This document shows, one piece after another, positions 8,144-62,923 of a stretch of 64,000 bases of DNA. Positions within the stretch are counted from its first letter, which is position 1. Every line of letters starts with the position of its first letter. The DNA comes from Octopus vulgaris (lineage: Eukaryota). Position numbers and translations under genes: made by a program. A model generated the notes under the pieces. That model was not told the origin of the DNA. It saw only the letters and a program-made list of their open reading frames with translations, and searched no databases. The stretch covers positions 189,224,001 to 189,288,000 of the forward strand of contig OX597815.1 in NCBI GenBank assembly GCA_951406725.2, given 5' to 3'.

Positions 8144-8560
8144 CAGGTGCAGGAGTGGCTGTGTGGTAAGTAGCTTGTTTACCAACCACATGGTTCTGGG
8201 TTCAGTCCCACTGCGTGGCACCTTGGGCAACTGTCTTCTACTATAGCCTCGGGCCGACCAAAGCCTTGTGAGTGGATTTGGTAGACGGAAACTGAAAGAA
8301 GCCCGTCGTATATATGTATATATATATATATATATGCATGTGTGTGTTCGTGTGTCTGTGTTTGTCCCCCTAGCATTGCTTGACAACCGATGCTGGTGTG
8401 TTTATGTTCCCGTTACTTAGCGGTTCGGCGAAAGAGACCCATAGAATAAGTACTGGGCTTACAAAAGAATAAGTCCCGGTGTCGAGTTGCTCGATTAAAG
8501 GCGGTGCTCCAGCATGGCCGCAATCAAATGACTGAAACAAGTAAAAGAGAGAAAAAGAGA
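8144..8560 (+). mobile_element. SINE family C, full-length
   Basis: tRNA-like head AGGTGCAGGAGTGGCTGTGTGGTAAG..GGGTTCAGTCCC, ACCTTGGGCAA box, internal (TA)n(TG)n, 3' half ending GCATGGCCGCAATCAAATGACTGAAACAAGTAAAAGAG. Confidence 0.9.
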
Positions 8561-21389: not shown

Positions 21390-21983
21390 TTTTGTTTTTT
21401 GAAATTAGCTATTTCATCTTTAAATATGAGAAATTAAATATATTAGGTTTTCATTATATACAATCGTTTATAGAGTTTATTTTCGATCTTGATTATAATA
21501 TTTATATATATTTTCATTGATAATTTATATATATTAGTCATTTCAAATATCTATATAAGTAGATATAGACTAAAATGGATATTAGAATATGGATTTTCTA
21601 CCTTATAAATTAAAGTTAATATTTCACATTATAGTCGATTTCGATATAATCATATTTAATAATAGAGTTTATTATAAGTAAATTTTTATTTAGATTATAT
21701 AGATTATTTATATCTTAAAAGTATTGATTATATTTTAGGTTTTGAAACCACCTGAAGAATGTCTCATAGAAGTGCTGACACGAAACGATCGTAGTGGTTA
21801 TTTTAATTAAATTTAATTTATATAAATTATTTTATGTATTGGCTTAAGTCTTTCTTTGTTTGATTTGCATAAAAGTGGTTTTGTCTCTAATTTAATATAA
21901 TATAATATAATATTTTACTATAAAATTGGATCCAATCCTAAATCTGATTTTTCCCTGTAAATTTGGATTTATTCCCTAATATT

Positions 21984-25455: not shown

Positions 25456-26569
25456 TAGTGTCTGTCTTCCATGCTGGCATGGGTTGGATGGTTTGGACTA
25501 GAACTGGTAAGCCAGAGAGCTGTGCCATGGTTCCAGTCTGATTTGTCATCATTTCTACTATGGCTGGATGCCCTTCCCAACACCAACCACTGTGTAGAAG
25601 GTTTCTTTTATGCATCAACCACATGGGTGCCTTTTATATGTCACCAGTACTGACCACGACTATGATTTCACCTAGCTTGACATTTCTTCTCAAGCACAGT
25701 AAATTGCCAAAAGCCTAAACCATTTATCCCCTCTGTATATTATCATGATTTTGAAACACAGTATCATGAGACCCAATCATGCCATGTCTTCTTCTGTAAA
25801 AGATACTCACTTACCAACGAGATATCACACATTTCCTTTCAAAGATATTAGCCAGCTGGCAGAAACGTTAGCACGCCGGGCGAAATGCGTAGCCATATTT
25901 CTCTGCTGTTATGTTCTGAGTTCAAATTCCGCCGAGGTTGACTTTGCCTTTCATCCTTTCGGGGTCGATTAAATAAGTACCAGTTACACACTGGGGTCGA
26001 TATAATTGACTTAATCCGTTTGTCTGTCCTTGTTTGTCCTCTCTGTGTTTAGCCCCTTGTGGGTAGTAAAGAAATAAATATTAGCCACCCGATTCGCAGT
26101 TCTGTACCAATGTAACTTCATCAGCTGAAGCTATCAATGATCAGCTGCTCTTTTAACTCACCTTTAACAAGTCCATCTTTTATGTGAGTTAATATTATAC
26201 AGGGTATCTAAAATGTCTGTGTACAATTTTATATATCGATATCTTGGTATGTATATTTGATAGAACAGATCTATAAAAATGTTAAGAAAGCTTGATGTGT
26301 CTAGACTTTTTTCTTGTCTTTAAAAAATGTGTTTATTATTTGTTTTGCTTATTATATTTTGATCATACTTTATCTATTTCTTGAAACTTAGGTGCAGGAG
26401 TGGCTGTGTGGTAAGTAGTTTCGGGTTCAGTCTCACTGTGTGTGCCACCTTGAGCAAGTGTCTTCTCCTATACCCTCAGGCCGACCAAAGCCTTGTGAGT
26501 GGATTTGGTAGACAGAAACTGGAAGAAGCCCGTTGTATATGTCTGTATATATATATATATATATATATA

Positions 26570-26673
26570 CTTTATTTAAAGCAGCAGAAAATTCAACAAA
26601 AACTGTCCGATGAACGGCAACGGGAAACTCAGAGTAACAGGTTTTGTTGAATTTTCTGCTGCTTTAAATAAAG
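26570..26673 (+). ncRNA. Hammerhead-like core capping a 37-bp hairpin
   Basis: Arms 26570-26606 and 26637-26673 pair at 36/37 positions; the loop is CCGATGA-ACG GCAA CGG-GAAA-CTCAGAG-TA. Confidence 0.7.
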
Positions 26674-27227
26674 CATATTACTCTACCACTGGTATTTGAG
26701 TACTCTTTTTTCCACCTTGTTTCACATTTATGTGTTTACTCCGGTATATATATATATATATATACATATGTTTGTGTATATGTTTGTGTGTCTGTGCTTG
26801 TTCCCCCCAACATCGCTTGACAACTGATGCTGGTGTGTTTACATCCCTATAACTTAGTGGTTCAGTAAAAGTGACCGATAGAATAAGTACTAGGCTTTAC
26901 AAAAAAATAAACACTGGGGTCAATTTGCTCAACTAAAGGCGGTGCTCCAGCATGGCCACAGTAAAATGAGTGAAACAGGTAAAAGAATAAACTTCAAAAT
27001 GAGGTTTTTTTTTTTTTTTGGTAGAATTGCTGTTTGGCAGAATCGTTGTTCACTGGAAGAGAAAGTAAACTGTATTCTTTGGCTGGCTGAACTAAAATCT
27101 ACCATCACTGTCCAAAGAAGATTTAGAACTCGTTACAATAAAGAAGCAACACACAGTAAAAAGTAATGTTTATTCAACTAAACCTTCATCTTTAGAAGAC
27201 TTGCAAACTAGGATGAATAATGCAATA

Positions 27228-36198: not shown

Positions 36199-36708
36199 CT
36201 AGTTTCAGCTCACGAGCTGTGGCCATGCTGGGGCACCGGCATTATGTATATCTATGTGTGTGTATGTGCATGTAAGTTGACACATATATGTTTGTAGTTT
36301 TGTTTTTACCTCTACAGTATTGTAGATGTCACTGTGATCTGGCCCCTAACTCCCCTTCTGCTGACCATCATAAACTCTCACCTAAGTATACCCTGTTATT
36401 CTATTCAGGAACTATCACTCTCTAAAATACAATATTGATTTCATGGAAAAGCACACAATTTTTGGAATGTCTTTCCATTTATTTTTATTCATATCTATTT
36501 CAACTTGTATTCAATGCTTTATATATATGTGTGTGTATTCTTTTCTACTCTAGGCACAAAGCCCGAAATTTTGGGAGAGGTGGGTGGGCAATCGATTAGA
36601 TCGACACCAGTATGCAACTGGTACTTAATTTATCGACCCTGAAAGGATGAAAGGCAAAGTCGATCTTGGTGGAATTTAAAATCAGGATGTAAAAACAGAC
36701 GAAATACT

Positions 36709-36941
36709 TATTTCTTTATTACCCACAAGGGGCTAAACACAGAGGGGACAAACAAGGACAGACATAGGTATTAAGTCGATTACATCGACCCCAGTGCATA
36801 ACTGGTACTTAATTTATCGACCCCGAAAGGATGAAAGGCAAAGTCAACCTCGGCGGAATTTGAACTCACAACGTAACGCAGACGAAATACCGCTAAGCAT
36901 TTCGCCCGGCATGCTAATGTTTCTGCCAGCTCGCCGCGTTA
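36709..36941 (-). mobile_element. Full SINE A nested in an older A-related SINE
   Basis: 12-bp TSD AGACGAAATACT at 36697-36708 and 36942-36953. Confidence 0.88.
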
Positions 36942-37507
36942 AGACGAAATACTGCTAAGCATTTCACCCGGCATGCTAACGATGAAATGTTTAGCAGTAT
37001 TTTGCCTGTCACCATGCTGAGAGTTTAAATTCCGCTGAGGTCGACTTTGCCTTTCATCCTTTTGGGGTTGATAAATTAAGTACCAGCAAAACACTGAGGT
37101 TGATGTAATCGATTATCCCGCTCCCTCAAATTTCAGGCCTTGTGCCTATAGTAGAAAGGATTATGTCATAACTTAATGCCAACAAATTTATAGATGGCAG
37201 AGCCATCTGTCATCGGTGATCTAGTAACTATTGTTGGATTATCAGCCTTGCACCGTTATGTAAATGAGTTTTGAGCCTAAGAACATTCTTGTTATCTTTT
37301 AAAAGATCTCTTTGATAGCTTCAGATTTGGTAACTAATGCAGTAAATCTTGTGAGAGAAACATTAGTAAATCCTGGTTAATTCTAAAATAACAATCTAAT
37401 TATTAATCTGATCATTATCCTAAATTACCAAAAACAAAAAAAAAAATGACTCAAAGGAATATAATTTCACAGCAATGTTAATTATAAACAGAGATGTTTC
37501 CATACAT

Positions 37508-41650: not shown

Positions 41651-42630
41651 TGACAAATTATTTGTTTTTCCATTATACATGCTCTTATCATTTTTGTCTT
41701 CATAAAACAAATAGTTACCAATAGAAGATATGGTTTACTTCTGTAATAAACATGCTGAATATGTAACACACATTGTTAAGTTGCAATTTCTGAACTGAAA
41801 TTTTTCTATGAACAACGAGAGAGGAAATAGCATTACTATATCCAATTGCATTACTATTCAAAACAGAGCATCCAAATATCCTGAACAGTGAATAAATACC
41901 ATTCCAGCAATTGTCCTTGGACTTTCGGAAACAATGACACCATTCATTTTGATGAGGTGGAATAAATAGCTGAGCTATAACGAGTTAAATTGTGAGATTC
42001 TTGAATCTAGTTAAAATTCAACATGAAAAAGTGGCTTTAGTACAATAATCTGCAGTGTTATTGTAATAACTTTACATATAATTGTTTCAACTACTAATTA
42101 GGTTTATCAGAGCTTAACTTTAGCCAATATGATTATGTATAAAGGACATCAGAGAGAAAATGATAAAATCTCTTCTATAAACCACAACAATAACATTAAC
42201 GATATTCGGAGATGAAATACATGAGGAAGATGATTATGAAGCTAATTAATGAGATGAAATTAAACATATTTCTATTCAGAATGTTAGCATAACAACAATA
42301 TAAATTTCATTTATAATAAATCGAACAGAAAATATTATTAAAACAAAAATAAAAAAAAAAGGCAGGTAATACAAGGCAGGTTGCTACAGCAACAATAAAT
42401 GCACAGAAGCCACAGTGCATCGGAACTCACTGTATGAAAAGTGCCATTTCACAAGATCAGAACATTTATCAATTTGCAATAAGTCTTTCAACACTTGATG
42501 CTAAAGCCTGAATTCTGTACTGTGGCTTTTCCATAACTGGCAATCTGAATTTGGGATAAAATTACAGAGACTATTGTCAGAGATGTTTTGGCTGAGGTTT
42601 AAGCTTTCAAGGTTCAAGAGTTCAAATAGC

Positions 42631-43230
42631 TATTTCTTTACTACCCACAAGGGGCTAAACACAGAGGGGACAAACAAGGACAAACAAACGGATTAAGTTG
42701 ATTATATCGACCCCAGTGTGTAACTGGTACTTATTTAATCGACCCCGAAAGAATGAAAGGCAAAGTCGACCTCGGTGGAATTTGAACTCAGAACGTAAAG
42801 AAAGACAAAATACCAATTTTTTATTATCAACAAGGGGCTAAACACAGGGAGGACAAACAAGGACAGACAAACAGATTAAGTCGATTATATCGACCCCAGT
42901 GCGTAACTGGTACTTATTTAATCGACCCTGAAAGGTTGAAAGGCAAATTCGACCTCGGCGGAATTTGAACTCAGAACATAACAGCAGACAAAATACCTAT
43001 TTTTTTACTACCCTCAAGGGGCTAAACACAGAGAGGACAATCAAGGACAGACAAACAGATTAAGTTGATTATATCGAGCCCAGTGTGTAACTGGTAATTA
43101 TTTAATCGACCCCGAAAGGATGAAAGGCAAAGTTGATCTCGGTGGAATTTGAACTCAGAACGTAATGGCAGACGAAATACGGCTAAGCATTTCGCCCAGC
43201 ATGCTAACGTTTCTGCCAGCTCACCTCCCT
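42631..43230 (-). mobile_element. SINE family A tandem trimer
   Basis: Same architecture as 13764-14364; flanking CAAG(A/T)GTTCAAATA repeat. Confidence 0.9.
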
Positions 43231-45147
43231 CAAGTGTTCAAATACCTTTTATCACTTTTACTATTGAAATTACTCTGAACCAGTGGAGTTCTGTGGCTTA
43301 GGTGAAGGTGTGTGGTTTAGGTGAAGGCACATGGGTTAGTGGTTGGGGTGTTGGACTCATGATCTCAAGAATGTGGTTTCAGTTCCTAAACGAAGTGATT
43401 CATTATGTTCTTGAGCAATAACACCTCATTTCAATTTGCCCAAATCTACACCACTTGCAAAGGTGAATTATTCTGTGACAAACTGGTGTCCATTCCAGCA
43501 GGAAATATGTGTATCACAGAAACCGAAGAACCAGCTCTGTGAGTCTGTATGGCCCAGGGAAGATTAGTGATTGGCTCTTAGGAAACTTATAACCAATTTG
43601 CATGGCATATACAAAAATAATAAAACAAACAGAAATAGCTTGCTTACCAACCACATGGTTCCGGGTTCAGTCCCACTGTGTGGCAATTTGGGCAAGTCTC
43701 TTCTACTATAGCTTTGAGCTGACCGAAACCTTGTGAGTGGATTTGGTAGACGGAAACTGAAAGAAGCTCATTGTATATATGTATGTGTGTGTGTCTGTAT
43801 TTGTCCCTCGCCCCCACCATTGCTTGACAACCAATGCTGGTGTGTTTACGTCCCAGTAATTTAGTGGTTCAGCAAAAAGAGATCGATAGAATAAGTACTA
43901 GGCTTACAAAGAATAAGTCCTGGGGTCGATTTGCTCGCCTAAAAGTAGTGCTCCAGCATGGCCACAGTCAGATGACAGAAACAATAAAAGAGTAAAAGAG
44001 TAACGGAAAGAATTTAGTAATGATAAAAAGGATTCTAAACTTAAAGACAGTTAGTGATGAAGATAAATTATTGTAGAACTTTCAAAATTTGAAGAATTTT
44101 TGAAGCAATGTTTCTGCTTCCTTATCTTTGAGCGATTTTAATATGAGATCCAATTAGTTTAATGCTTTGCATAAAGAAAGAGATAACTAATCTAAATAAC
44201 GAAGGTTAATTTGTCTCAGATGGGAGATAGGTACGATCCACTTATAGATCATCAATATCAAAATATGCTAATATCCTAATATCTTTTGTAACATTATTCA
44301 GCTAAACATTAAGCTAATGAGGCGTATTTTATGTGGTCACTTGTCCTGCTAGAAATAACGACCGAATCTCCTTGAATTTGGTTTTTAAATAGGAAAAGGA
44401 TTTAGTTGTTAATATAGCCCTATGCACCACTGAAAATGTGAGGCTGTCATGGGTCAAATGATTTTTATTATAGGTTTCTTAAATCTGTGCTGACTTACAG
44501 CTAAATAGTAAAAACAACAACTAGATATAATAGTACTAAAATTACCTTCGATGATAAAATATAAAAGAGTGGAGAAAAATGAGTCTAGAAGGATCTATTT
44601 CGGGAGATCTGAAGGTCAAAAGTTTTAACTGATGATGAAAGACTGGAACAAATAATTAACAAGAATAAAATGATATATGTTATTAATATGAATAATGTAC
44701 CTAGAAAAACAATGGCAAAGTGCAAAATTTAGATAAAAACAAAAAGAAGAAAGAAGGAGGGAAGAGAACAATAACTATTTCTGATGTGGCAATTATTCTC
44801 TCTTGGATTAGACAAGTAATGATGTAAAGGAAAGGGAAGCAAGAATTAGGTAAAAAGAAGCAGCAGAAGGAATGGCATTTGATTAATAATTGTAATTATG
44901 ATAATTAACATTATCAGTATTCTGTTTGAAAGATACTCTTCAAGGATAGATTATGAACTTAGATTGAAATAAAGCAATGGATGTGATAAACTAAAATGTA
45001 AATTGAGGATGAAAAAGAAATACCCATTAATTAAGGCCAAGTCTTATTGAAATGCAGATTCGGAATTATAGAAATATAATTTGGTTGTCAACAATTCTTC
45101 AGTTTGAGAAATACTTTTGCTCTCTTCTCTATTCAACTCTTCCATCC

Positions 45148-46317: not shown

Positions 46318-46845
46318 TTAACCCTTTTGATACCAACCTGCCTGAAACTGCCTCTGGTACTGTAGTACAAATGTCTTAGAAAATTACTACTTATAAATCT
46401 TACAACAAGAGATATTCAGCAACAGTACTTTGGAGTAAAGATTATTTGCTGACATAACATGGCATTCCTGGTTTAGGACTAATGTTGCTATAATTTAATC
46501 CCAGCAGACATCGTCTCCAGCTGGCTATATGACATGATCTGTGTCCTTATATTTTTGAAAATATAAGGAAACAGATTGTGTTGTATAGCCAGCTGGAGAC
46601 GATGTCTCCTGGGGCTAAATTACTCAACATTAGTCCTAAACCAGGGCTGCCATGTTATGTCGGCAAATAGTCTTTACTACAAATGTCTTGTTTTCAAAAG
46701 TTCTGAATTAAAATCTACCAAACCTAAGTCACAATTTATGTTCCTCACATTAGCTTAATGATAAAAAATTCTTTGTTATATCTAAAATTAATTGAAAGAA
46801 ACACAGAGCATCTCAACAGAAGTATGGTAACAAAATATTAACAAA
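46318..46845 (+). mobile_element. piggyBac-like MITE (TTAA-CCCTTT start), interrupted; second 5' end at 46855
   Basis: TTAACCCTTTTGATACC start. Its 3' part matches 56985-57068, which ends CAAAAAGGGTT. Confidence 0.6.
46429..46683. mobile_element. Near-spacerless palindromic MITE (~127-bp arms)
   Basis: Symmetric about ~46556 (CCTTATATTTT-TG-AAAATATAAGG; CATCGTCTCCAGCTGGCTATA / TATAGCCAGCTGGAGACGATG). Confidence 0.88.
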
Positions 46846-49002: not shown

Positions 49003-49242
49003 TTATCAAGCTAGCTAGCTATATGTACACACACACACACACTTGGTTGATTATGGAGGTGTGTCTTTCAAATTGAAAAATTCAATATAGCTACTACACA
49101 GGAGTATAATAAGTTATGTTGAATCACCTTGAAATATCAGTCAAAACTGTCCAACAAACAGGAACATGAAACTCTGAGTAGAAGTTTTCTGCGATATTTT
49201 ATGCTGTTTTTATAACTTCAATAATAAAGTATAAATATATGT

Positions 49243-54623: not shown

Positions 54624-54890
54624 TTGTGTCTGGGGAGAGTAATTTTCTTTTTGTGCATTATAATTTAACACATTCACCGGTAAAATTTCCACTTATTTCT
54701 TATTTTTATATTCCTAAAATTTTCGTTGTGTCTTGCAACCAAAAATAAGAAATAAGTGGAAATTTTACCGGTGAGTGAGTTAAATTATAAGGCACAAAAA
54801 GAAAATTACTCTCCCCAGACACAACAGAATATGCTTCAACACACAAACTCACATAAAGAATCTTGCAAACCAAATCTAAAAACGAAATAT
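54624..54890. repeat. Fold-back element, ~84-bp arms, 33-bp spacer
   Basis: 54624-54707 is the reverse complement of 54741-54824. Confidence 0.88.
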
Positions 54891-60110: not shown

Positions 60111-61632
60111 CTCTAAACACTGGCTGTAATCAAACAACACTAACAATTGAAACACTTCACACGAAACTAAACTTAACAAACATGTTTGTTGCAAGTTAAA
60201 CAATATGATATCTACACTAACAGGAAATCAGGCTTCTGCAAATAGAATTATACATGACTGGAGATAGTAAATGTAGTTATGATTCTAAACTTAAAATGAT
60301 AATAAATTTGGGAATTGAGTGATCAAAGAATAATGAATAAGAAAAGGCAACAAAAGAAAAATTTTGAAGGAAATTTGCCAGTTTCTGAAGTTCACAGAAA
60401 AGCAGAATGACAGTAAAGAATTACAGTTATTCATACTTAGATAAAGAAGAAAAAATTCAATAAAACAGAGATAATTAATTCTTTATTTCCTATTCTTATG
60501 TTTCTGAAGCTAACCAAATTTTCATCTTCAGAGATAACAATTCAAAGACATTGTGATGTGATCAACTGTATATTCACTGTTTTGATGGCACCAGTTTTAT
60601 TTTATCTGTATTACCGTCTTTACTATATCGATAGGGATATAAAACAGATCAGGTCAGGTATACTTTCCAATAATTTTCAGCAATTCATAAACTCAAGTGA
60701 CTTAGAAATTTATCAATAAATATATTTTCTATCATTTCTGTAGAGCAGCCATCACAATCTCTTAGAGGAATAATGGTTTTATTCTATAATACGGTACTAT
60801 ATGTTTGTTATAAATCATAGTGTTTTCTGTCTGCAAGTATCAATGATGGTTCAGTAATTCCCCAGAAAGCTGCAAATAAGTTAACATTGCAATTAATATA
60901 TTTACCAGACAGCTTCCTCTTATTTGAGAATATATTGGCGTGTTTCGACCATAAACAGTCGCAGTTTGGATTCATTTATTTATCAATGCCATTTGTAACA
61001 GAACATACATTTGCTTGAAATTCTGAGTAATGTATGAAATAAACATAATTAAGAGCAAATATTTGAACATGACATTATTTCAAGCAGCCTAAATTGCATT
61101 CATGCTTGAATAATTAGGCAGGTAATGTTTGTCAGTGTTTCAGCATTGATCGCCTAACTTAGGAATTGCATTAACTTGTTAAATGTCTTCTGGGTGATTT
61201 GCACAAAGGAGGTTGTTAGATTTTAGATTGATGATGCTTTTAGTTAGTAAGTAACAATTACAGCAATGTGATAATCATCCACGTTTTAATACCCATTTTT
61301 CTATCTGCTGGTGGGGATTTTACGGGTTTACAATACGGTGTTTCAATACCCATCTTCTTCGATAGTTATCTCCTCTCTAAGATTCATTATCATAAGCTTT
61401 GACTTCATTGCTCCTTTCTAGATCCTCGAGGGATTCTCTATGTAGACACGCCATCTGCTAGAAGTAGCAACACAATCGTCCTCAAACCATACTCAACCAT
61501 TTAAAAATAAAGCAAAGACATATAGGATAATGTAATTCTTGGTTCCACTAAAAAGACATGGTGGCCATCACTGGAACCCCTTTTATCAATCAGGATGGAC
61601 TTGAAGCTCAACAACAATATTTCTGATATTTC

Positions 61633-62050
61633 TTATTTCTTTATTGCCCACAAGGGGCTAAACATAGAGGGGACAAACAAGGACAGACAAAGGGATTAAG
61701 TCAATTAGATCAACCCCAGTGTGTAACTGGTACTTAATTTATCTACCCCAAAAGGATGAAAGGTAAAGTCAACCCTGGCAGAATTTGAACTCAGAACGTA
61801 ACGGCAGACGAAATACCTATTTCTTTACTACCCACAAGGGGCTAAACACAGAGAGGACAAACAAGGTCAGACAAACGGATTAAGTCGATTATATCGACCC
61901 CAGTGCATAACTGGTACTTATTTAATCGACCCCGAAAGGATGAAAAGCAAAGTCAACCTTGGCAGAATTTGAACTCAGAACGTAGTGGCAGACGAAATAC
62001 CACTAAGCATTTCAACCGGCATGCTAACATTTCTGCCAGCTCGCCACCTT
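61633..62050 (-). mobile_element. SINE family A dimer
   Basis: TSD TCTGATATTTCT; fixed junction at about 61815. Confidence 0.9.
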
Positions 62051-62923
62051 TCTCTGATATTTCTGTCACAATTACCTATTATTTAGAGAACACAACTCTT
62101 TTACACACAGATTCCATTTCTTTTGAATTAAATATTCATACTAGTGCAACTTTCTCATACATCAGTTCATGTCTTTAAAATGGATGATAGAAGTGTATTA
62201 GGCATTTTTCCTAACATTAGTACCAATATTTAGAACTCCATATGCATTCTTATATATCGGTTTCAAATTTTGGCACAGGGCCAGCAGTTTTAGGAGGAGG
62301 GGGTATGTTAATCACATTAACCCCAGTACTTAACTGGTACTTATTTTATTGACCCCAGAAGGATGAAAAGCAAGTCGACCTTGATGGAATTTGAACTCAG
62401 AATGTAAAGATAGACGAAATGTTGCTAAACATTTTGCCCAATGGAGCTTATGATTCTGCCTGCTCACTGCCTTGCATCCTTATATAGTGAAAGAGAAAAC
62501 TCTGAAGAGAACTCATGGGTTTTAGTACAAGATTCCATTACAAACATCAGAGGGAACAAATAGAAAAACAAAAAAAAACAAAAAAAAAACTGGTGAGCAA
62601 ATTCATAAATTATTTAACTACATCACTTTACACATGTTTCAGTGGAGATTATGGTTGACTTGGTTATAAATCTCTTAGGAAGGGATTATCTAATAAATGT
62701 ACCTGGTTCAGATTGCATTATTCAACCTCATTGAAATACGTGTAAAAATAATGTAACTAAATAATTTATAAAATCAGAAATTTAAAGATGTTCAACTAGA
62801 AGAATTTGATAAAGATGAGGAGATAGAGATGACAACTGGAAGTTCCTACAGGACAACCTACAGAGGGACACTGATTAAAACTGTGCGGGGCGCAAAGTCC
62901 TGACCAGGGTGAGGATGACATGT

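What the first reader, a model, noticed from the sequence alone, without database searches (positions are those of the whole stretch)
26570..26673. Hammerhead core as the loop of a 37-bp hairpin
The arms pair at 36/37 positions and are a direct extension of helix I. The whole 30-nt loop is core, stem II (CG-GCAA-CG) and helix III (CTC-A-GAG) with GUA. The core reads CCGATGA (U4C), and the decayed relative at 49143-49188 also has CC, so the variant may be family-wide. Inference: a template switch at helix I copied the downstream arm. Cleavage would leave a nicked long duplex.
Basis: partly seen in the sequence, partly recalled or inferred. Interest (0 to 1): 0.75.

Follow-up and report, generated by a model that had tools for sequence, protein, structure and literature searches.

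The report
Fold-back insertion of Penelope-like retrotransposon
The hairpin is real, but it is one of thousands of short mirror-image insertions of a known kind of jumping gene; their ends suggest they were likely copied from the very start of the element's RNA, straight through a self-cutting motif that had likely not cut.

Summary
The hairpin is confirmed (36 of 37 pairs, 30-nt loop). It is part of a 175-bp insertion (26570-26744) in a (TA)n tract. The insertion belongs to a Hydra-clade Penelope-like retrotransposon with 6,345 exact core matches in this genome. Family insertions are typically two head-to-head arms that end at two fixed sites, +37 and +108 from the predicted cut; this is the known inverted-copy-plus-'tail' design. 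Here the arms were joined within helix I, which leaves one core in the loop. Such joins are rare (30 exact matches against 4,989 tail ends). C4 is not family-wide (41%); it marks the older subfamilies. Arm ends pile up 36-49 nt upstream of the cut (30 of 48 at risk), not at it (4 of 77), stop at -47, and often carry an extra G there. This suggests copying of a capped, uncut RNA 5' end. The two arms share subfamily letters (0 of 53 discordant at position 4). Cleavage and transcription are untested. This scan already noted head-to-head short-end/long-end Penelope insertions elsewhere in this genome.

The parts
26570..26601 (-). Inverted arm: antisense copy of the element from the fixed 'short' end (+37 from the predicted cut) back into helix I; its last 5-7 nt are shared with the forward arm
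   Evidence: the same outer end recurs in 60 of 81 short insertions
26595..26601 (.). Junction microhomology inside helix I (5 nt if the source read TAGC at -43..-40, 7 nt if TAAC)
   Evidence: A26602 is the native 5'-strand letter, where an inverted copy would have C; native upstream sequence; same join 9 times exactly in the genome
26597..26744 (+). Forward arm: pLTR piece of the Hydra-clade PLE from -40 to the 'long' end (+108)
   Evidence: 97% identical to the pLTR of the ORF-bearing copy L031 (row L001)
26603..26640 (+). Type I hammerhead motif: helix I CTGT/ACAG, core CCGATGA (C4), 2-bp stem II with GCAA loop and A.G at 10.1/11.1, GAA, palindromic helix III ACTC-A-GAGT, A17; predicted cut 26636/26637
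   Evidence: sequence; same layout as Hydra-2_aMil and Penelope-3_HM rows in Craig 2021 File S2; no Rfam match; activity untested
26674..26744 (+). 71-nt 'tail' between the two fixed 3' ends (+37 and +108)
   Evidence: 4,989 exact tail ends followed by TA
26545..26569 (.). (TA)n target, left part
   Evidence: sequence
26745..26766 (.). (TA)n target, right part
   Evidence: sequence
26396..26990 (+). Host: unrelated high-copy interspersed repeat whose internal (TA)n tract took the insertion (limits approximate)
   Evidence: copies at 8298, 17096 and 19301 show the tract without the insertion; very high contig depth over its two halves
49143..49210 (+). Decayed relative of the same pLTR end (core CCAACAA; letters of the oldest subfamily type), followed by TA-rich sequence

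Best explanation
The hairpin is a short two-armed insertion of a Hydra-clade Penelope-like retrotransposon in a (TA)n tract, likely made by priming reverse transcription from both target strands at two fixed sites on one RNA and likely joined here by microhomology between the two strands of hammerhead helix I. Steps: (1) Inferred: transcription starts in the pLTR at A(-47), 47 nt upstream of the predicted cut, at an initiator-like CC-A-TTCT, and the RNA is capped. (2) Inferred from a published in vitro study of another PLE: the RT-GIY-YIG protein nicks both strands of AT-rich DNA and starts cDNA at two internal RNA sites. (3) Shown: family arms end at two fixed sites, +37 and +108, usually one of each, head to head, and both arms carry the same subfamily letters. 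(4) Shown: most short arms run through the predicted cut and stop at -36..-49; inferred: they run off the capped 5' end of uncut RNA. (5) Inferred: the two cDNA ends are trimmed and joined at short homologies. Usually both arms keep the core; in about 1% of cases the join falls in helix I, leaving one core as the loop of a long stem, as here. The hairpin is likely a by-product with no function of its own.
For: Family: 6,345 exact core matches, control 0; 4,989 tail ends next to TA. L031 is pLTR-ORF-pLTR with a 3,415-nt unit. Its broken ORF has RWK, DKT, CxCX5C, CxxC and CxH motifs and a C-terminal nuclease region, as described for Hydra PLEs. Unbiased tail-anchored sample, 97 of the first 100 tail ends on C1: 16 long arms; of 81 short ones, 60 have an inverted short-end partner, 1 a long-end partner and 20 none found. 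Ends at -49..-36: 30 of 48 long-end arms and 32 of 35 partner arms at risk; ends at 0..+12: 4 of 77 and 3 of 59 (Fisher p 2e-12 and 3e-18). At base resolution, 46 of 109 arms end at -47..-43 and 0 at -48. 452 arms have a purine at -48, where long copies have C or T; 62 of the first 100 listed have G. 7 of 7 arms that match TATATA-G-(N)-TTCT have the G before A(-47), none before -46. Arms discordant at 0 of 53 (position 4), 3 of 76 (+4) and 2 of 74 (+28), against 46-51% for random pairs. Two internal RT start sites, both-strand nicking and uncut RNA as main substrate were shown in vitro for another PLE (PMC11167929).
Against: No RNA end was observed: the start site and cap are read from DNA junctions only. 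About half of the G(-48) cases among 30 contexts viewed can be supplied by the partner arm's CTAG, and TATATAGA is also a common microsatellite junction, so the cap reading is not proven. The -36..-49 cluster overlaps a CTAG palindrome and the base of helix I, which may each raise joining there (13 of 109 arms end at -44). End rates are also raised at -30..-1 (0.011-0.02 per nt against about 0.004). Arm identity could in part come from later gene conversion, and the arms differ at -41 in 6 of 26 cases, which a single template does not explain simply. 20 of 81 short insertions show no inverted partner. BLAST-defined ends are approximate by a few nt. No Pfam family hit the ORF or four homologues, and no RT tree was built.
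Confidence: 0.8

Rival explanations
1. One reading: one cDNA (or second strand) switched template at helix I and copied the downstream arm, so the hairpin comes from a single priming event.
For: The join is inside helix I; helix-I joins recur in 30 exact matches at several registers. G/A discordance at -41 between arms (6 of 26) could reflect fold-back of cDNA at helix I.
Against: The arm's outer end is the family's fixed +37 end abutting TA, the same as in 60 of 81 short insertions whose joins are mostly elsewhere. A fold-back copy would have no reason to stop at +37 when the template goes on to +108. In 6 of the 9 exact window-type joins the geometry is mirrored, with the tail on the inverted arm, and 1 of 9 has two short ends.
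Confidence: 0.1
2. The short arms stop at -44..-47 because of a structural or protein block at the base of helix I, or because the CTAG palindrome favours joining, not because the RNA starts there.
For: The cluster coincides with the outer edge of helix I (natively about 12 bp plus a 4-bp AUUC/GAAU extension); 13 of 109 arms end at the palindrome, -44.
Against: RT meets helix I first at +12, where ends are not enriched. A 4-nt palindrome does not explain the wall at -47/-48, the extra G, or arms that abut TA directly.
Confidence: 0.25
3. The fold-back is a selected, functional RNA: a ribozyme that cuts itself to leave a nicked long duplex for small-RNA or editing pathways.
For: A perfect 32-bp outer duplex would form if transcribed. 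Inverted Penelope copies give siRNAs in Drosophila (PMC3681739 passages). Extending helix I does not remove the core.
Against: Each helix-I join viewed is a separate TA insertion with its own flanks; there is no sign that the fold-back form spread as a unit. This copy has C4 (a U4C variant 'considerably decreases activity in vitro', PMC3088659 passage), lacks G10.1-C11.1, has a 2-bp stem II and a helix III that needs a dimer partner (PMC4209133).
Confidence: 0.05
4. Assembly artefact or chance palindrome.
For: It lies in low-complexity TA sequence; PLE inversions trouble short-read assembly (PMC8557442 passage).
Against: z -10.3; ends match family boundaries to the base; the same join occurs at 8 other loci with different flanks.
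Confidence: 0.02

Closest known systems
Hydra clade of C-terminal EN+ Penelope-like elements (Craig et al. 2021, PMC8557442; passages, section 11, supplement part 2 and two supplement searches seen)
   Same: RWK, DKT, CxCX5C, CxxC and CxH motifs, (TA)n target, type I hammerhead in the pLTR. Hydra-2_aMil has the same helix I (ctgt/acag) and helix III (actc-N-gagt-a). The paper describes the adjacent inverted 5'-truncated copy and the tail at one end.
   Different: Unit 3,415 nt (described elements generally <3 kb); tail 71 nt (described 30-40); stem II cut down to 2-3 bp; C4 in 41% of cores. The hammerhead differs from that of Hydra-1_Obim (File S2), so this is another family.
Poseidon PAc of Anolis, in vitro (Frangieh et al. 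2024, PMC11167929; parts 1-2 of 4 read, supplements not seen)
   Same: Two internal RT start sites bounding the tail, nicking and extension on both strands of AT-rich DNA, and uncut RNA as the dominant template.
   Different: There the start sites are inside the ORF and the evidence is mostly biochemical. Here they are upstream of the ATG and the evidence is the geometry of genomic insertions; the parts read do not describe joined head-to-head arms or run-off at a capped 5' end.
Minimal/palindromic hammerheads of metazoan PLEs (Cervera and de la Pena 2014, PMC4209133; parts 1-2 of 4 read)
   Same: Type I, small palindromic helix III suited to dimers, low activity in vitro, dual motifs on opposite strands noted in Schistosoma.
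   Different: Those motifs have a long helix II and a conserved G10.1-C11.1; this one has neither.
L1 twin-priming inversions and untemplated 5' G (review PMC4859970, passages)
   Same: A second primer gives an inverted arm; an extra G marks run-off at a capped 5' end.
   Different: L1 primes first at poly(A) and the second site varies; here both start sites are fixed and the target is (TA)n.
Non-LTR retrozymes (bioRxiv 10.64898/2026.07.22.740005; part 1 of 5 and passages read)
   Same: Short non-coding sequences with a type I hammerhead, related to PLE pLTRs.
   Different: Retrozymes are head-to-tail tandems with a hammerhead in each unit; this is a single head-to-head fragment of an ORF-bearing element.

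Membership tests
Hydra-clade PLE | Single ORF with RT and C-terminal GIY-YIG nuclease, flanked by pLTRs | tested here: met
   L031: YRDD RT motif and a VYRAK..TYTG nuclease region at the C-terminus, in three broken pieces colinear with a 713-aa homologue at 51-59% identity; pLTRs 3,415 nt apart. Read from motifs; Pfam gave no hit.
Hydra-clade PLE | RWK, DKT, CxCX5C linker, CxxC before E, CxH after N, no CCHH | tested here: met
   RLRWKAF, SDKTRN, CNCKNESSC, CKLCLLE, N..SELMNLCRH; no CxxC between the GIY and YIG halves
Hydra-clade PLE | Insertion into (TA)n | tested here: met
   4,989 exact tail ends followed by TA (the pattern required it); flanks
Hydra-clade PLE | Placement in the Hydra clade by RT phylogeny | not tested
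   no named reference sequences were on hand
PLE insertion architecture | Inverted 5'-truncated copy plus a tail at one end | tested here: met
   60 of 81 short insertions; this copy
Type I hammerhead ribozyme | Core CUGANGA / GAAA / UH | tested here: inconclusive
   all present except U4, which is C here and in 2,580 of 6,345 cores; U in 3,765
Type I hammerhead ribozyme | Helix II with G10.1-C11.1 and at least 3-4 bp | tested here: not met
   A.G at 10.1/11.1 and 2 bp here; A-U and 3 bp only in the oldest subfamily; several published Hydra motifs also have a mismatch next to the core but keep 4 bp
Type I hammerhead ribozyme | Match to an Rfam hammerhead model | tested here: not met
   none at E<=1 over the window or E<=10 on two 221-nt stretches
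Type I hammerhead ribozyme | Self-cleavage | not testable with these tools
   indirect only: cDNA ends are not enriched at the cut site
Non-LTR retrozyme | Head-to-tail tandem units, each with a hammerhead, independent of an ORF | tested here: not met
   single head-to-head insertion; sequence is the pLTR of an ORF-bearing element
pre-miRNA | Match to a curated family above its gathering score; small-RNA reads | tested here: not met
   only generic hairpin hits below gathering; no small-RNA data

The most novel reading that the evidence does not exclude
Most insertions of this family are copies of just the first 85-155 nt of the capped transcript: one RNA, two fixed start sites, both cDNAs running through an uncut hammerhead to the cap, then joined head to head. 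The genome would then hold a base-resolved in vivo record of Penelope-type priming, showing that the hammerhead does not define the template's 5' end in this family, and some thousands of near-perfect 40-85-bp hairpins ready for ADAR or Dicer.
Probability: 0.55. Interest if true: 0.55.

Novelty: new member of a known kind. Interest (0 to 1): 0.33.

Why it matters
The hairpin itself matters little: it is a rare junction type of a common transposon insertion. The family pattern is more useful. How PLEs make their tandem/inverted ends, and what their hammerheads do, are open questions in the papers read. Here thousands of young copies give testable coordinates: two RT start sites (+37, +108), a candidate capped start (-47), and no excess of ends at the ribozyme cut. 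That agrees in vivo with the one in vitro PLE study. I found no report of cap run-off in PLE insertions in paper searches (open-access library only; none of the 15 listed of 18 papers held both 'pLTR' and 'untemplated').

Tried and rejected
Rfam: no hammerhead hit in three searches; miRNA hits are generic hairpin matches below gathering. Pfam: no family for three ORF pieces or four homologues; the 120 homologues listed were unnamed except one 'hypothetical protein'. Expression: no RNA holder listed. Contigs of four runs guessed to be RNA showed no splice joint and cannot show ends. Empty-site check in four other runs was uninformative because the flanks are high-copy repeats. Splice acceptor idea: the sequence 5' of -40 reads like a 3' splice site at the edge of helix I, as in D. 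virilis Penelope, but most arms keep the AG and run to -43..-47, and no shared upstream exon was seen; rejected as the cause of the cluster. Cleavage-defined ends: joins in the inner 4 bp of helix I, which a cut RNA would favour, number 11 exact against 9 for the outer join; no clear excess. Two-RNA (dimer) origin of the arms: not supported at most diagnostic sites. Naiad: rejected, the nuclease is C-terminal. A sequence look-up in earlier findings returned nothing. bioRxiv supplements were closed, and the supplements of PMC11167929 and PMC4209133 were not read; they may hold end maps or C4 variants that bear on novelty.

Full report
Observation. 26570-26606 pairs with 26637-26673 at 36 of 37 positions, with A26602 x G26641 as the only mismatch and a 30-nt loop. 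The fold is far beyond chance (MFE -50 kcal/mol, z -10.3). The loop holds the words of a type I hammerhead with C at position 4. The stem is what is stable; stems II and III are weak (pair probabilities about 0.09 and 0.24-0.30; the last helix III pair 0.000). Rfam has no hammerhead match. The hairpin is the left part of a 175-bp insert, 26570-26744, that splits a (TA)n tract inside an unrelated high-copy repeat. All positions below count from the predicted cut (26636/26637).

What it belongs to. A 20-nt core pattern matches 6,345 places in the 2.8-Gb genome, control 0. One hit (L030/L031) is pLTR-ORF-pLTR with a 3,415-nt unit. The ORF is broken into three pieces that align end to end with an unnamed 713-aa homologue. 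It shows RWK, DKT, an RT YRDD motif, a CxCX5C linker, a C-terminal nuclease region, and CxxC and CxH motifs. These are the features given for the Hydra clade of Penelope-like elements, which insert into (TA)n and carry hammerheads (Craig 2021, section 11). That paper's File S2 lists Hydra hammerheads with the same helix I and helix III as this one (Hydra-2_aMil); Hydra-1_Obim has a different motif, so this is another family. Clade placement rests on motifs, not on a tree. That the host is a cephalopod is my guess from recalled repeat features and from earlier scan notes; nothing here depends on it.

Insertion anatomy. Arms end on their 3' side at two fixed sites next to TA: +37 and +108, with a 71-nt tail between. 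4,989 exact tail ends were counted. I took 97 of the first 100 tail ends on contig C1 (the last 3 were not fetched) as a sample not selected on 5' structure. Sixteen arms run 95 nt or more upstream. Of the 81 short ones, 60 have an adjacent inverted arm with the short end, 1 has a long-end partner and 20 have none found. In 46 of the 61 two-armed cases the arms share 37 nt or more (median 57), so long hairpins are the norm for this family. An inverted truncated copy plus a one-sided tail is the described PLE layout. Two internal start sites and both-strand priming were shown in vitro for another PLE.

This copy. The left arm starts at the fixed +37 end and reads back into helix I. The right arm runs from about -40 to +108. 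A26602 is the native 5'-strand letter, so the join lies in the 5-7 nt shared by the two strands of helix I (26595/26597-26601), not at the cut. The inner 10-12 bp of the stem are native helix I; the outer 25 or so come from the inverted arm. The identical join occurs 9 times, a join in the inner 4 bp 11 times, and a wider pattern for helix-I joins 30 times (12 at the outer AUUC extension, 12 in the middle, 6 inner). These are exact-match lower bounds, about 0.6% of tail ends; the unbiased sample has 2 of 97 (L058, L160). Each viewed case has its own flanks, and 6 of the 9 exact window-type joins carry the tail on the other arm. So the form arose repeatedly and did not spread as a unit.

The C4 variant. 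U4 is in 3,765 and C4 in 2,580 of 6,345 cores. Among 132 arms, the subfamilies order by internal divergence as C4/C7/GGAA/U11.1 (0.065, n=8), C4/C7/GCAA/G11.1 (0.036, n=6), C4/U7/GCAA/G11.1 (0.024, n=26; this copy's type) and U4/U7/GCAA/A11.1 (0.020, n=78). C4 is therefore likely the older state, and U4 likely arose later, possibly by CpG deamination (inference). The common variant sites fall at position 4, N7, loop II (which stays GNRA), 11.1 and the helix I mismatch. This fits a kept fold but is weak evidence: the arms were selected by core match, and the flanks are equally conserved. A natural U4C variant is described with reduced activity in vitro. The 49143 copy is a decayed old-type relative.

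Where the cDNAs stop. Ends are not enriched at the cut: 4 of 77 long-end arms and 3 of 59 partner arms at risk end in 0..+12. They pile up at -49..-36: 30 of 48 and 32 of 35. At base resolution 46 of 109 core-bearing arms end at -47..-43, none at -48 and 3 at -49 (this sample was chosen on the core or the tail). A(-47) sits in a YYANWYY context (initiator consensus recalled, not tested). 452 arms have a purine at -48 in place of the native pyrimidine, G in 62 of the first 100 listed. In 30 contexts viewed, many of these G's can come from the partner arm, but some cannot (L203, L211, L213; both arms in L216). All 7 matches of TA-tract + G + arm have the G before -47. An untemplated G marks cap run-off in L1 and SVA, and the Penelope promoter of D. 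virilis lies in the pLTR. The simplest reading is that short insertions copy the 5' pLTR part of a capped, uncut transcript, while long ones start at the 3' copy of the same sites. This is inference from DNA; a structural block or palindrome effect remains possible.

One RNA or two. In 77 distinct two-armed insertions the arms differ at 19 of 411 diagnostic-site comparisons and 93 of 4,748 others. Position 4 differs in 0 of 53 against 51% for random pairs. Both arms thus come from the same RNA or source copy, or were later homogenised. The excess is mainly at -41 (6 of 26), which is unexplained.

Function. No run on record as RNA holds the element, and contigs cannot show ends, so expression, cleavage, editing and small RNAs are untested. 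Inverted Penelope copies yield siRNAs in Drosophila, so the family could feed such pathways, but nothing singles out this locus.

Earlier scan notes. e1-8669363 reported head-to-head Hydra-clade insertions with a short-end/long-end rule in this genome; I had reached and counted this before seeing it. e1-8666049 and e1-8666756 mention altered cores, including CCGAUGA in another repeat; I did not test those.

Verdict. A real feature, an ordinary product of a known retrotransposon class, and a rare junction type. The family-level end map is the part worth keeping. Interest 0.33.

Noticed in passing
G000 helix-I joins: 22 of 30 helix-I joins carry C4, against 41% of all cores; the older C4 subfamilies may fold back at helix I more often, or the pattern favours them.
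   Followed up: no
element position -41 (L004, L009, L016, L018, L049, L070): The two arms of one insertion differ A/G at -41 in 6 of 26 cases, far above other sites; the position is a G.U wobble or A-U pair in helix I. A-to-I editing or repair of a folded cDNA are candidates.
   Followed up: partly
element -52..-40 (e.g. L032:4048-4060): Sequence just 5' of helix I reads like a 3' splice site, as reported for D. virilis Penelope; no spliced copy was seen.
   Followed up: partly
window:49320-49472: Another inverted repeat (33-bp perfect arms, 87 nt apart) next to a TA tract; similar sequence flanks L004 and L154. Probably a two-armed insertion of a different family.
   Followed up: no
window:22773-22902, 46467-46645, 54624-54824: Further long inverted repeats with non-microsatellite arms of 21-34 perfect bp.
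   Followed up: no
window:13741-14430, 36525-37008, 42608-43297, 61611-62117: Dispersed repeat with 184-nt tandem units, 16-20 copies in the window.
   Followed up: no
window:7090-7112 and 21752-21790: Other strings with hammerhead core words (CCGACGA..GAAA and CTGAAGA..GAAA) found by a loose scan; not evaluated.
   Followed up: no
L093, L208, L210, L033: Junctions between arms hold short templated repeats of the -47..-30 region, as if the RT re-primed several times at the RNA 5' end.
   Followed up: no
Craig 2021 File S2, Penelope-2_NV: The loop 2 entry of this sea-anemone element has the same 10 letters as the stem II hairpin of one subfamily here, which suggests this family keeps only the tip of a longer stem II.
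   Followed up: no
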